From contig OZ024752.1 in the NCBI GenBank assembly GCA_964016885.1, positions 5,208,001-5,272,000 on the forward strand: a stretch of DNA of 64,000 nucleotides, written 5' to 3'. Position 1 is the stretch's first letter. Each line of letters begins with the position of its first letter. Below the pieces are notes generated by a model. The model ran no database searches. It worked only from the letters and a program-made list of their open reading frames with translations, and had not been told where the DNA came from. Below, piece by piece: positions 23,859-60,039 of this stretch. The position numbers were made by a program, and so were the translations under genes. Source of the DNA: Eledone cirrhosa. Its lineage: Eukaryota.

Positions 23859-24506
23859 TACAATTAACAACAAAGAGCGCTTAGAACATAGGTATATCTT
23901 TAATTGCTAACAGTGTTTCGTCCACACTAGAAGTGGGACTCTTCAGAGCATAAAGAGTAAATACATAGTATACAAGCATTGACAAAGCCAAAACAGACGA
24001 ATATATGTGGGGATACCATAAGTTGGGAGGAGTTTAAAGAGTAAAGTAAAAGGAGTAAAATAAGAAAAGAGTAAAATAAAAATAAACACAAAAATAAGAA
24101 TAAAAATAAGAATAAAAATAAAAATGAATTTTCATTTTTATTTTTCATTTTTATTTTTATTTTTATTTTTATTTTTATTTTTATTTTTATTTTTCATTTT
24201 TATTTTTATTTTATTTTTATTTTTATTTTTATTTTTATTTTTATTTTTATTTTTATTCTTATTTTTATTCTTATTTTTGTGTTTATTTTTATTTTACTCT
24301 TTTATTTTACTCCTTTTACTTTACTCTTTAAACTCCTCCCAACTTATGGTATCCCCACATATATTCTTCTGTTTTGGCTTTGTCAATGCTTGTATACTAT
24401 GTATTTACTCTTTATGCTCTGAAGAGTCCCACTTCTAGTGTGGACGAAACACTGTTAGCAATTAAAGATATACCTATGTTCTAAGCGCTCTTTGTTGTTA
24501 ATTGTA
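23859..24506. repeat. Fold-back element, ~270-bp inverted arms, Penelope pLTR-like
   Basis: Arms 23859-~24130 and ~24235-24506 near-identical, separated by (TTTTTA)n; one hammerhead per arm. Confidence 0.9.
24415..24460 (+). ncRNA. Type I hammerhead ribozyme motif
   Basis: TGCT-CTGAAGA-GTCCCAC TTCTA GTGTGGAC-GAAAC ACT GTT-AGCA: stem I TGCT/AGCA, stem II with G10.1-C11.1, short stem III, GUU triplet. Mirror copy at 23905-23950 (-). Confidence 0.8.
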
Positions 24507-24954
24507 AATACATATATATGAACATATATATGTGTGTGTATGTATATATATATATATAAATATATATTTCCTACAGGGAAAACGAATGTTAGATGATGAT
24601 GATATATATATCAAACGTTTTTCCATTTGTATTGAGATTTTGCTATTTTTCAATGAATCTTCAGAAAATTATGCCCAAAGATCCAGAACTATAACAGAAT
24701 AATTCATGAATGAAAAATCCCTACTCCTGAGGTAAACATGAAGGATTTCAGAAAATGACTGAATGTTTTAATGGAGTAGGAGTAGAACATTAGAGGATGA
24801 GTTGTTTGAAATGGGGCATTTTCATTCAAAATGAGAATATTTTGTGTTCTAAAGTAGAGGATTGTTCAAAATTTCAACATTATAATTCCCTTTCTCCTTC
24901 TCTCTCTCTCTCTATCATTTTAACACACATATTCTAAGTTTTGAATATGTGTAT

Positions 24955-25961
24955 ATATATATATATATACATAAATGGCAATTTCTGTCTGTTTGTGGAT
25001 TTGTTTGTGAACCTAAAACTCAAAAACTACCAAACCGATCTTGATGAAACTTGACACGTTTGTGGCTCAGTTGATTTCTTACGTACTTTGAAGTTTTAAA
25101 AAATCGACAATTTCCAGTCTGCATGGACTTTTTATAAATCAATAGCATGAGCATGCAAATGCTCATGTGAATGTTATTTTCTGCCACAACTTTTAAAGTT
25201 CTCAAGCGATTTCCTTCAAAATTGAAACACAGATAAATTATGTGCTAAGGATGGCTTTAGGCTAAGAAATTATCCCAGACAACTCATGGAAGGCAAAAAG
25301 CCGCACAAACCTATTTTTCATTTGGTTTGTTTCTTCTGATATGAGCAACCAATTTGCTTTAAACTGTACAGGTGTATTATTTATGTATCAATAAGTTTCC
25401 CCAGGGCACCTTAATAAAGCAAAAACACCACAAATATCAAATGTCACAAATGTTTTTTTCAAACATCATAGATACACCACTTATGTGCAGTGGATGGTTT
25501 TCTGCAGCGGGACAGAGGGCTGTACAACAATGGGATGGATAACAATTGAATTTGTCCTCCACGGGCTGAGTTTCACACAGACAAATGGGATTTATGGGCT
25601 CTGGTTGGGAAATGTGGGAGTATTTTCCAAAAATTGTATACCAGGCGGAACCCTTTACGAATCGAATAGAAGTCTTCAATGGGTGACAGTTGACACGCGG
25701 GCTGTAAGGATATTTAAAAATTACCTACCCACCCTAGGCTGTGTCATCTTTGCTGCTAACATGCTTATATTTAACCGAATGGATCATCTTACGGGACAGA
25801 TAGAAGGCCTCTGCGGGTTGCATTAACCAGGTGGCCGTTGAGTGGACATCCCGACGATGTTTTTCTATAAGACTTAATTCAACCGAGAGCTTCATCAAGT
25901 GTTATTTCTGCACAAACAATTGTATTACTTAAACCCTAGCAACGCCGGGTACCTCAGCTAG
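24955..25961 (+). mobile_element. Non-autonomous Helitron-like element
   Basis: 3' end CCCTAGCAACGCCGGG imperfect hairpin then CTAG|T; 5' TA-rich start with TCTGTCTGTTTGT and ACCGATCTTGATGAAACTTG; 5' boundary approximate. Confidence 0.6.
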
Positions 25962-26943
25962 TATATATATATATATATATATACACATGCATAAATATAT
26001 TTGTGTGTGTAGGCATAATGTGTCTGTGCCTGTATCTGTGTGTATGAGTACAGATGTCTTTATGAATTCATATATATGCATTAGATGTTTGTAAGTGCAT
26101 CTAAACGTTTGTATGTTGAAATGTGTGTATAAATTTGTATATACATATTAGGTATTTGCATGTATCTATGTTTGATGATGATGATGGTATATATATATAT
26201 ATACATACACACACACATAATGATTATCTCCCTTATTATAATACTCATATATCTAATCTACATTTTTTTCTGCCTGCATTTCTCAAAAATGGCTGACTAT
26301 ATACACATACTTTCCTCTTGTGAAAATATTTTTTCTGTTTTTTCTTTTCTTACTCTCATTTATATTTTTATTTATTGTTCTATCCTTTATTGATTATTCT
26401 ATCTTTTGATGATGGTCTATATCAATCATCAAAGTAATATATATCATCTTATACATCTATGTTTGTATATATATATATCCGGGAGAGATGACCCCTTAGC
26501 CTTTCTCAAGGCAGAATTCTAGGAGGAGGAAAACTCTGATATACCACCTGCAACCCTTATGGTATCCAATGATGTTGACTTGTTCTTCTTTTTGGTAAAT
26601 ATCATCTTGGTTAAGAGAGTGGGACTGGCTTTGTGCAGTGCCTTTGTTCACTATAAAAGCTTCACGGCACAGGCATTGCTTTATATCTGCAGATCTCTCT
26701 GCACTTGTCGTCACATGGTACCATGGGCCCAGCACTATGTGTTAATAATTGTCACAAGTGTAGTGTTTGTACCAGAGTTTTCAAGTTGCTGGCTGGACTA
26801 AAAAGTCACACTCGTTCAGGGCATCGGTAGGGGTTCTCCTACATGGATATAAAGTAGTGGCCGTACTCGAAAACGAGTTGGCAGCCACCACCATATATAT
26901 ATATATATATATATATATATATATATATATATATATATATATA

Positions 26944-59180: not shown

Positions 59181-59438
59181 TATATATATATATATATATA
59201 TATATATATATATATATATATATATATATAAAATAACAGGAGGCTGGACTGGTGAAAGGTTTATTATACTATGATCATTTCAATGACCGGGTTCAGTATG
59301 AATCCAGTGACATCATCAGGTATTCAAAATATAACAAAGGAATATAACAGATAAAATCCATGGGGCTGAAAATCGGAGGACAACCGACTATTTAGCACCT
59401 TCTACCTCAGTCGACCACCCTCGAGTCAATACCTTTGA

Positions 59439-59496
59439 ATACCTGATGATGTCACAGGATTCATACTGAACCCGGTCATTGAAATGATCATAGTAT
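59439..59496 (+). ncRNA. Hammerhead ribozyme motif in fold-back 59228-59546
   Basis: ATAC-CTGATGA-(stem II with TTCA TAC TGAA apex)-GAAA-TGATCA-TA-GTAT, overlapping a following AATAAA; palindromic stem III; mirror copy ~59266-59323 (-). Confidence 0.7.
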
Positions 59497-60039
59497 AATA
59501 AACCTTTCAAGGATTTACACCAGTCCAGCCTCCTGTTATTTTATAATAATTAACTCTGTACTCGCACCACTAACTACACAATCGAAGACAGGTGAGTTGG
59601 ATTACGTTGAGTGCTCTCCATAATATTACATCGAGATTGACCATATGGAATGACCAGTTCTATCCAGTGGTGAACCAACAAACCTAAATATATATATATA
59701 TATATATTTCAGTGGGATTTGAGCTCGGAGAGTGGAGGACCATAGCTCTATGCTATAAAGCAATTAAAATAATACTGAATGGTAACACGAACGGCTTCAA
59801 CTATATGAACTCTTTCAAAAGTCAACAGTTGACATAATCTTGTAATCTTGTATCAGTTATGGCGGTAATATATATATATACATGTGTGTGTGTGTGTAAG
59901 TGAGTATCATGTGTGTGTTTGTTTGTATGCATGAGTGTTGGTGTGCGCGTATGTATGTGTGTGTATGTCGTACGTATGAGTTTCAATAAGTGAGTTTTTT
60001 TTTTTCTTTATGCGCGAGGACATAGAAATAGTCGGGCTT

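What the first reader, a model, noticed from the sequence alone, without database searches (positions are those of the whole stretch)
23859..59546. Population of short fold-back insertions carrying hammerhead ribozymes, set in TA microsatellites
Seen: at least six families of 150-650 bp inverted-repeat elements with a hammerhead core or its remnant (23859-24506, 43340-43612, 43775-44035, 46299-46440, 55557-56000, 59228-59546). In each, the ribozyme reads outward on both arms, and the element abuts (TA)n or (GA)n. Solo cores occur at 32595, 40212 and 50208. Established: Penelope-like elements carry type I hammerheads in their pseudo-LTRs and often have an inverted pLTR at the truncated end. Inference: these are either extreme 5'-truncated PLE insertions or non-autonomous ribozyme retroposons mobilised by the local PLEs. 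Either strand's transcript would hold one ribozyme plus its own antisense.
Basis: partly seen in the sequence, partly recalled or inferred. Interest (0 to 1): 0.85.

Follow-up and report, generated by a model that had tools for sequence, protein, structure and literature searches.

The report
Penelope fold-backs reveal twin priming hairpins
These palindromes are real and are most likely stumps of known Penelope-like retrotransposons; their tails carry a small hairpin, conserved and paired in related elements from other animals, that is predicted to mark where reverse transcription starts.

Summary
The fold-backs are real, and 8 of their 12 arms keep a full hammerhead core. They are most likely 5'-truncated insertions of Penelope-like elements (PLEs), mainly the (TA)n-targeting Hydra clade. 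That much is known: paired minimal hammerheads on opposite strands, the U3-A8 core and inverted truncated copies are published.

Every PLE-type fold-back here (12 of 12) is asymmetric. One arm stops at the microsatellite; the other runs on 34-163 nt. A 2.8 kb Hydra element in the window has the same build. Reads for the one family tested show thousands of pieces and varied junctions.

New: 11 of 12 tails hold a bulged hairpin, RCUC-stem-YY-GAGY(RC), usually 4-12 nt past the short arm's end. In Hydra-type loci from metagenomes its inner stem covaries (72 of 76 cells paired). It comes in pairs about 60 nt apart in the 5' leader (24 of 41), and element 3' ends map within a few bases of one copy (11 of 18; 2 expected).

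I infer that the two hairpins set two reverse-transcription starts, one per target end. This would explain the tail and the inversion. It is untested biochemically and not found in the papers searched.

The parts
23778..24506 (-). Fold-back 1. Arms 23859-24128 and 24240-24506, (TTTTTA)n spacer, 81-nt tail on the minus-strand arm. Hammerheads at -23946 and +24419 (GUU site, near-palindromic stem III).
23832..23853 (-). Tail hairpin (GCUC/GAGC form), 5 nt past the short arm's end
43340..43722 (+). Fold-back 2. Full core only in the right arm (+43536, U.U closure, AUA site); nested palindrome at the junction; 119-nt tail with hairpin at 43639-43659.
43779..44042 (+). Fold-back 3 (family A, very high copy). 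Full core in the right arm (+43916, GUA site); left arm deleted for 24 nt; 73-nt tail with hairpin at 43982-44000.
44810..44945 (+). Family A copy, unfolded, truncated inside the catalytic core
46222..46440 (-). Fold-back 4. Junction at stem II, no CUGANGA in either arm; 77-nt tail; hairpin found only by the covariance model (46256-46305).
50130..50560 (-). Hammerhead at -50251, hairpin at 50186-50168. The upstream limit is approximate.
55556..56035 (+). Fold-back 5. U3-A8 hammerhead in both arms (right-arm core from 55855, GUC site, 2-nt loop III). 34-nt tail without the hairpin. Likely a non-Hydra PLE.
59227..59687 (+). Fold-back 6. Cores at -59319 and +59443 (U.U closure, palindromic loop III, AUA site); 142-nt tail with hairpin.
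56365..59178 (-). 5'-truncated, broken Hydra-clade PLE (RT C-half, thumb, GIY-YIG). Tailed 3' end; 50-bp inverted tail-less copy at 59129-59178 that stops 6 nt before the hairpin at 56521. No intact hammerhead found.
40003..41270 (-). No tail hairpin.
32560..32670 (-). Tail-less 3' end with hammerhead at -32657 (AUA site, GCGC loop III), running into (TA)n
10567..10826 (-). Extra fold-back, older (75 identities, 11 mismatches), no ribozyme, tail hairpin at 10608; same family as 49902
30863..31297 (-). Extra fold-back, not used to define the motif. Arms 30931-31028 and 31200-31297; hairpin 6 nt past the short arm's end.
42370..42779 (+). Extra fold-back, arms identical over 138 bp, no ribozyme, 126-nt tail with hairpin at 42658
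49902..50056 (+). Extra fold-back, no ribozyme, tail hairpin at 49995
56067..56330 (-). Extra fold-back with a decayed hammerhead (U.U closure) and tail hairpin (model hit 56090-56158)
50600..51591 (-). Hydra GIY-YIG fragment (51096-51591, CxCX5C linker). Past a microsatellite lies a tail with the best-scoring hairpin (50642-50692); that they belong together is inferred.

Best explanation
These are asymmetric fold-backs with one tailed and one tail-less arm, most likely left by single, heavily truncated insertions of Penelope-like retrotransposons (mainly the Hydra clade), whose two ends are predicted to be set by a pair of RNA hairpins. Shown: the build, the hairpin, its covariation, its pairing in the 5' leader, and its place just beyond element 3' ends. 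Inferred steps: (1) a tandem transcript reads from the 3' UTR and hammerhead of one unit into the leader of the next, which holds hairpins 1 and 2; (2) the RT-endonuclease, likely a dimer, binds them and cuts both strands of a (TA)n tract; (3) each target 3' end pairs with a short UA-rich patch just 5' of one hairpin and primes cDNA, so the start before hairpin 2 gives the tailed arm and the start before hairpin 1 the tail-less arm; (4) both cDNAs stop early and are joined head to head by microhomology repair, leaving variable junctions. Each insertion loses at least one hairpin, so the stumps would be near dead ends, and their hammerheads passengers, paired off by the antisense arm. Odds: PLE truncation products 0.85; hairpins set the start sites 0.7; two primed cDNAs rather than snap-back 0.55.
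For: Asymmetry in 12 of 12 PLE-type fold-backs, including an ORF-bearing Hydra element. That element's relatives carry RW, DKT and CxCX5C, the Hydra marks. U.U closure of stem II occurs in three window families, in 20 of 41 hammerheads of Hydra-type loci and in many rows of File S2 of PMC8557442. Tail hairpin: 9 of 12 tails by descriptor, 11 of 12 with the model. A model built only from metagenome loci ranks window tails as its top 8 of 13 hits. In loci chosen by fixed letters alone (32 of 72; 29 distinct), the inner stem pairs in 72 of 76 cells, the first pair in 29 of 29 (13 C-G, 16 U-A); slid controls give 15 of 73 and 21 of 60. Covariation score 0.323 against 0.116 shuffled. Two copies in 24 of 41 leaders, 42-80 nt apart. 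3' ends fall -4 to +5 nt from a copy in 11 of 18 loci, 2.0 expected (10 of 17 by pattern). The inverted 5' copy of L022 stops 4 nt before the hairpin. Family A: 9989 and 6946 contigs, many different strand-change joints, and a recurrent end at 43976 followed by (TA)n in 418 and 533 reads. A purified PLE cuts and extends both strands and starts at two sites that bound the tail (PMC11167929).
Against: No biochemical test. No fold-back arm was matched at DNA level to an ORF-bearing copy. The motif was first seen in these tails, and the -4 to +6 window was chosen after looking. Related loci were not fully removed from the 18. Seven of 18 ends do not fit; 40 of 72 3' UTRs lack the fixed letters (some are tail-less or cut by the contig end; not counted). 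The gap is 35 nt at 43340, and 55557 has no hairpin. The three central basal pairs never vary in the training set, so they give no covariation. The anole PLE primes without homology to the target, unlike step 3; my microhomology test (29 nt against 11) has a null that is too low. The hairpin could act as DNA: the Drosophila tail was needed for endonuclease recognition. Some junctions near 43910 recur at high depth in one run. No contig spanned this locus.
Confidence: 0.6

Rival explanations
1. Same elements, but the second arm comes from snap-back. One cDNA folds on itself at the truncation point, copies itself back to hairpin 1, and then anneals to the other target end.
For: Nested palindromes and short duplications at junctions (43340, 42370, 46299, 55557). 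The spacer belongs to the tailed arm at 43775 and 56367. Strict asymmetry is expected.
Against: Tail-less ends before a hairpin also occur as the main 3' end of ORF-bearing elements (L030, L034, L043, L068, L072), so that site works as a primary start. The tail is reported at either end of a unit (PMC8557442).
Confidence: 0.25
2. The fold-backs are non-autonomous ribozyme retroposons that spread as palindromes, mobilised in trans by local PLEs.
For: The tailed arm keeps hairpin 1, predicted to fold outside the long duplex at 23859, 43340 and 59228. Junctions near 43910 recur at depth 66-694 in run X1. pLTRs can be mobilised in trans (PMC3846280).
Against: Of three family A copies in the window one is folded and two are not. 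Joints are diverse. Five extra fold-backs have no intact ribozyme. The core is paired off in all five folded transcripts that hold one. The recurrent 43910 joints were absent from the other three runs laid.
Confidence: 0.1
3. DNA-level fold-back repair at fragile (TA)n tracts duplicated whatever lay beside the break.
For: 44940-45119 is a symmetric fold-back of an RTE-type 3' piece whose arms run into the flanking microsatellite.
Against: It does not explain arm ends fixed just before a conserved hairpin in 8 of 9 measured cases, nor a tail on one arm only.
Confidence: 0.04
4. Assembly or library fold-back artefact.
For: Arms at 42370 are identical; no contig spans the tested locus.
Against: Eleven of the 12 arm pairs differ by substitutions or indels, or one is only a short piece. 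Ends follow a sequence rule. The same build appears in an unrelated contig (L022) and in print.
Confidence: 0.01

Closest known systems
Hydra-clade Penelope-like elements (Craig et al. 2021, PMC8557442), incl. Hydra-1_Obim and Penelope-13_HM
   Same: (TA)n targets, type I hammerheads often with U.U closure, 5'-truncated inverted copy, tail at one end. Present in octopus.
   Different: Here arms are cut to 36-270 bp with no ORF, and tails run 51-163 nt against the 30-40 bp described. The paired hairpin is not mentioned in the sections and supplement I searched, though it can be read in their consensi Hydra-2_Amil, Hydra-1_Ajap (twice, 5' leader) and Hydra-2_Ajap.
Dual minimal hammerheads of truncated PLEs (Cervera and de la Pena 2014, PMC4209133)
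   Same: Pairs 100-700 bp apart on opposite strands; U3-A8 core variant; palindromic stem III; dimer-dependent, weak cleavage.
   Different: In the parts read they give no anatomy of the palindromes or tails, and report G10.1-C11.1 as highly conserved.
PAc, Poseidon PLE of Anolis (Frangieh et al. 2024, PMC11167929)
   Same: Two RT start sites bound the tail; both target strands are cut and extended; predicted dimer; the hammerhead is dispensable in vitro.
   Different: Starts lie in an AC-rich stem-loop inside the ORF and are not homologous to the target. Here ends lie just 5' of two conserved non-coding hairpins, often on a TA patch.
Non-LTR retrozymes (Cervera and de la Pena 2020, PMC7229834; Li et al. 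2026, 10.64898/2026.07.22.740005)
   Same: Small, non-coding, type I hammerhead, pLTR-derived.
   Different: Retrozymes are head-to-tail tandems that give circular RNA; these are head-to-head palindromes.
3' stem-loop of LINE UnaL2 (PMC1636434, search listing only) and twin priming of L1 (recalled)
   Same: A conserved 3' hairpin needed for mobilisation; a second target end priming on the RNA.
   Different: One hairpin, and in L1 an inversion without duplication.

Membership tests
Hydra-clade PLE | RT with C-terminal GIY-YIG; RWK, DKT and CxCX5C motifs | tested here: met
   Met for 56365-59178 through its relatives and tblastn, and for 51096-51591 (CxCX5C). The short fold-backs have no ORF to test.
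Hydra-clade PLE | Insertion in (TA)n | tested here: met
   All 12 tailed ends run into TA repeats. The window is rich in such runs (221 of 5 or more units).
Hydra-clade PLE | Type I hammerhead near the 3' end | tested here: met
   8 of 12 arms of the six named elements. Not found in 56365-59178 or in five extra fold-backs.
Hydra-clade PLE | Fold-back arms homologous to the 3' end of an ORF-bearing copy | tested here: inconclusive
   No genome; no DNA match to 78 loci. The link rests on the shared hairpin and hammerhead style.
PLE (any clade) | Inverted 5'-truncated copy with a tail at one end only | tested here: met
   12 of 12
PLE (any clade) | Variable 5' truncation | tested here: met
   One family only: three window copies end differently; diverse joints and falling upstream depth.
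Minimal type I hammerhead | Core, stems I-II, palindromic stem III, covariation | tested here: met
   Stem I A-U to C-G change between 43916 and 50251. Read consensus GGC/GCC on both sides, unphased, with loop II hypervariable.
Minimal type I hammerhead | Self-cleavage | not testable with these tools
   Needs an in vitro assay.
Non-LTR retrozyme | Head-to-tail tandem of hammerhead units | tested here: not met
   Window elements are inverted. 77-78 nt tandem joints of family A exist elsewhere.
Non-LTR retrozyme | Circular RNA expression | not testable with these tools
   No RNA run was available to lay.
MITE / foldback DNA transposon | Symmetric terminal inverted repeats, fixed length | tested here: not met
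   Asymmetric ends; variable junctions. Defining features recalled.

The most novel reading that the evidence does not exclude
Hydra-clade PLEs carry a conserved pair of leader hairpins that load a dimeric, telomerase-related RT and place each target end on a short UA template. One RNA thus primes two cDNAs. This single element would explain the tail, the inverted 5' copy, the need for tandem copies and the (TA)n bias, and would be the first clade-wide cis-acting start signal for a PLE.
Probability: 0.4. Interest if true: 0.75.

Novelty: new variant of a known kind. Interest (0 to 1): 0.52.

Why it matters
The palindromes as such are ordinary PLE debris. But Craig et al. name the origin of tandem and inverted structures and of microsatellite bias as open, and PLE RTs are the closest kin of telomerase. 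A short, covarying RNA element at both start sites turns that question into a simple mutate-and-rescue assay. It also gives a 46-position model that assigns ORF-less debris to its clade.

Tried and rejected
No genome is held, so copy number and linkage could not be counted directly. Rfam: only microRNA-like matches to palindromes and microsatellites, all below gathering score, plus one tRNA-like match, among the best 150 listed; no hammerhead and nothing over the tail hairpin. Word-indexed protein searches found nothing for two PLE pieces. Pfam found nothing for 5 window pieces, and one weak GIY-YIG among 7 proteins. Viral contigs: 76 pattern matches, no relative. No RNA holder listed; no evidence on expression either way. 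The unique flank 44053-44660 was almost uncovered in the lay. Earlier scan findings: three look-ups, nothing. Luense et al. 2017 is not held. A protein-coding reason for the tail motif was rejected: by-eye translation gave no shared peptide, and in loci it lies mostly 14-48 nt before the ORF match. 28101-28434 and 6201-7287 were looked at as held-out fold-backs and set aside, because their 3' ends point inward. 45311-45340 is a 30-bp palindrome and was not scored. L042 was dropped as a full tandem; loci with under 15 bases of contig left were dropped; 49902 was left out of the 10-tail shuffles as kin of 10618; one of 29 instances (L067) was left out of alignment A3 because the contig ends.
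Full report
OBSERVATION. Self-comparison of the masked window and arm alignments confirm all six inverted repeats. A type I hammerhead descriptor gives 9 complete hits (+24419, -23946, +43536, +43916, +59443, -59319, -50251, -40250, -32657) against 7 in 30 block-shuffled windows. Most have a palindromic or near-palindromic stem III, the mark of dimer-dependent PLE hammerheads (PMC4209133). 55557 carries the U3-A8 core in both arms, read by eye. 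46299 has no CUGANGA, and one arm each of 43340 and 43775 is broken, so 8 of 12 arms hold a full core.

ANATOMY. In each element one arm stops at the microsatellite and the other runs on for 34-163 nt before (TA)n. Five further short fold-backs share this build (10618, 30863, 42370, 49902, 56067), none with an intact ribozyme. So does a 2.8 kb broken element at 56365-59178 with a 50-bp inverted piece at its 5' end: 12 of 12 in all. One symmetric fold-back of RTE-type sequence (44940-45119) does not fit. Junctions hold short duplications and nested palindromes. Short-arm ends share 29 nt with the flanking repeat over 11 elements against 11 expected. That null ignores forward extension, so the excess is overstated, and four elements show only 1 nt.

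WHAT MADE THEM. The RT piece 58019-58681 (one stop read through) matches 1713 proteins. These show RW, DKT, CxCX5C, CxxC and CxH, the marks of the Hydra clade, which inserts in (TA)n and carries hammerheads (PMC8557442, section 11). The best named relative is from Argonauta hians, so the host is probably an octopod (inference). tblastn with 61 of these proteins finds two Hydra pieces in the window, 51096-51591 and 57284-59146. The frame above the 40250 hammerhead is another clade; its nearest Atlas clusters include one with GIY-YIG on 10% of members, a lead only. The U.U closure of stem II in three window families is common in Hydra hammerheads: 20 of 41 in metagenome loci and many rows of File S2.

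COPIES. For 43783-44660, three runs of one sample hold 0.94 of the sampled words and may be the source. Laid at 80% likeness, 9989 and 6946 contigs (two organisms) and about 6900 reads in each of two RAD runs map almost only to the element. Depth over the hammerhead is 12 and 43 times that of two upstream bins in X1; subfamily divergence adds to this fall. Strand-change joints occur at many positions, though several reflect clipping at variable sites. Joints near 43910 recur in X1 only. A common internal end at 43976 is followed by (TA)n (418 and 533 reads). Loop II is hypervariable, and loose ends suggest a two-sided change in stem I. No contig spanned the locus itself.

THE TAIL HAIRPIN. Unrelated tails share GAGYRYY, which pairs with an upstream RCUY around an inner stem and a 1-2 nt pyrimidine bulge: 8 of 10 tails with a 2-bp inner stem and 7 of 10 with 3 bp, shuffled means 0.13 and 0.05. 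The descriptor is loose over the whole window (21 hits, 14.8 in shuffles), and it was defined on these tails, so I tested it elsewhere. The held-out fold-back at 30863 has it 6 nt past the short arm; its relative at 46090 shows a two-sided change in the inner stem. In 78 Hydra-type loci from metagenomes (the best 80 of 436) the strict form lies 28-60 nt after the hammerhead cut in 13 of 30 loci with 100 nt or more downstream (shuffles 0.58, antisense 2, ORF 1). Selecting by fixed letters only gives 32 of 72 loci (29 distinct), with 72 of 76 inner cells paired and the first pair in 29 of 29; covariation 0.323 against 0.116. Relatedness among loci inflates such scores, but slid controls pair far less (23-57%). 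It misses 10608, 30924, 42658, 49995 and 56521, which only the descriptor finds. Over the loci it gives 115 hits, 108 on the sense strand. Leaders hold two copies in 24 of 41 and one in 12, the last usually 14-48 nt before the ORF match. Where a 3' end can be mapped on the same locus's leader, it falls within -4 to +5 nt of a copy in 11 of 18 cases (2.0 expected): tail-less ends before copy 1, tailed ends before copy 2. In the window the gap is 4-12 nt in 8 of 9. In the published consensi, 4 of 6 hits to three 9-letter forms lie in the small Hydra file, which suggests a clade-specific element.

MECHANISM. See Best explanation. The start-site reading leans on the anole PLE, which cuts and extends both strands, starts at two sites that bound the tail and is predicted to be a dimer (PMC11167929). 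Snap-back of one cDNA stays open. Folding predicts that in a read-through transcript the catalytic core is paired with its antisense in all five elements that have one, while the tail hairpin still forms in three of four checked.

WHAT IS KNOWN. Opposite-strand pairs of minimal hammerheads 100-700 bp apart and the U3-A8 core were reported in 2014. Inverted truncated copies and one-ended tails are standard for PLEs. I did not find the paired hairpin in nine paper searches, in Rfam or in the Craig supplement. Subscription papers, Repbase reports, figures and the supplements of the other papers were not seen and may bear on this. Papers seen: PMC8557442 passages, sections 6 and 11, supplement parts 1, 2, 52, 53 of 59 and two searches; PMC4209133 parts 1-2 of 4; PMC3846280 parts 1-3 of 5; PMC11167929 parts 1-2 of 4 and passages; 10.64898/2026.07.22.740005 parts 1-3 of 5; PMC6765202, PMC8969392 and PMC7229834 passages; PMC1636434 listing only. 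The labels RTE, Neptune-like, mariner and L1 twin priming are recalled.

VERDICT. A real feature of a known class. The palindromes alone would score about 0.25. The paired hairpin raises this to 0.52, because it makes an openly stated question testable.

Noticed in passing
reads on window 43896-43979: Head-to-tail joints going back 73-78 nt occur in X1, X15 and X16. Family A has short tandem hammerhead units elsewhere in the genome, which could supply a built-in dimer (retrozyme-like).
   Followed up: no
window 44940-45119: Symmetric fold-back of an RTE-type 3' piece lacking its last 30 or so bases, with arms running into the microsatellite, directly after a family A end. Not explained by the model.
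   Followed up: partly
window 28090-28434: Nested inverted repeats with 3' ends pointing inward and a TA run inside; origin unclear.
   Followed up: partly
window 42829-42850 and 43710-43730: The same 16-mer before (TA)n occurs twice, 880 bp apart; either an ultra-short 3' stump or a target duplication.
   Followed up: no
window 46050-46167 (+) and 46905-47200 (-): Further PLE 3' ends: a relative of the 30863 tail, and a relative of the 56365 Hydra element with a long form of the hairpin at 47070.
   Followed up: partly
window 21870-22866 (+): Second PLE thumb fragment, 80% alike to 41105-41266; nearest Atlas clusters carry HTH_animal (PF26215) on 18-27% of members.
   Followed up: partly
window 46224-46245 and 50700-50722: A 22-nt stretch is shared between the end of fold-back 4's tail and the 50640 tail region (z 6.3).
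   Followed up: no
window 44200-44431 (+): Open frame ending at a GT splice-like site; possibly a host exon, which would place these insertions in introns.
   Followed up: no
window 12280-13167 and 38442-39543: Two mariner/Tc1-like transposase remnants, the first with 100-bp terminal inverted repeats.
   Followed up: no
L069, L070, L078: Hydra elements inserted tail to tail at one TA tract; hairpins on both strands.
   Followed up: no
L031:2400 and L053:1769: U3-A8 hammerhead cores also occur in Hydra-type loci.
   Followed up: no
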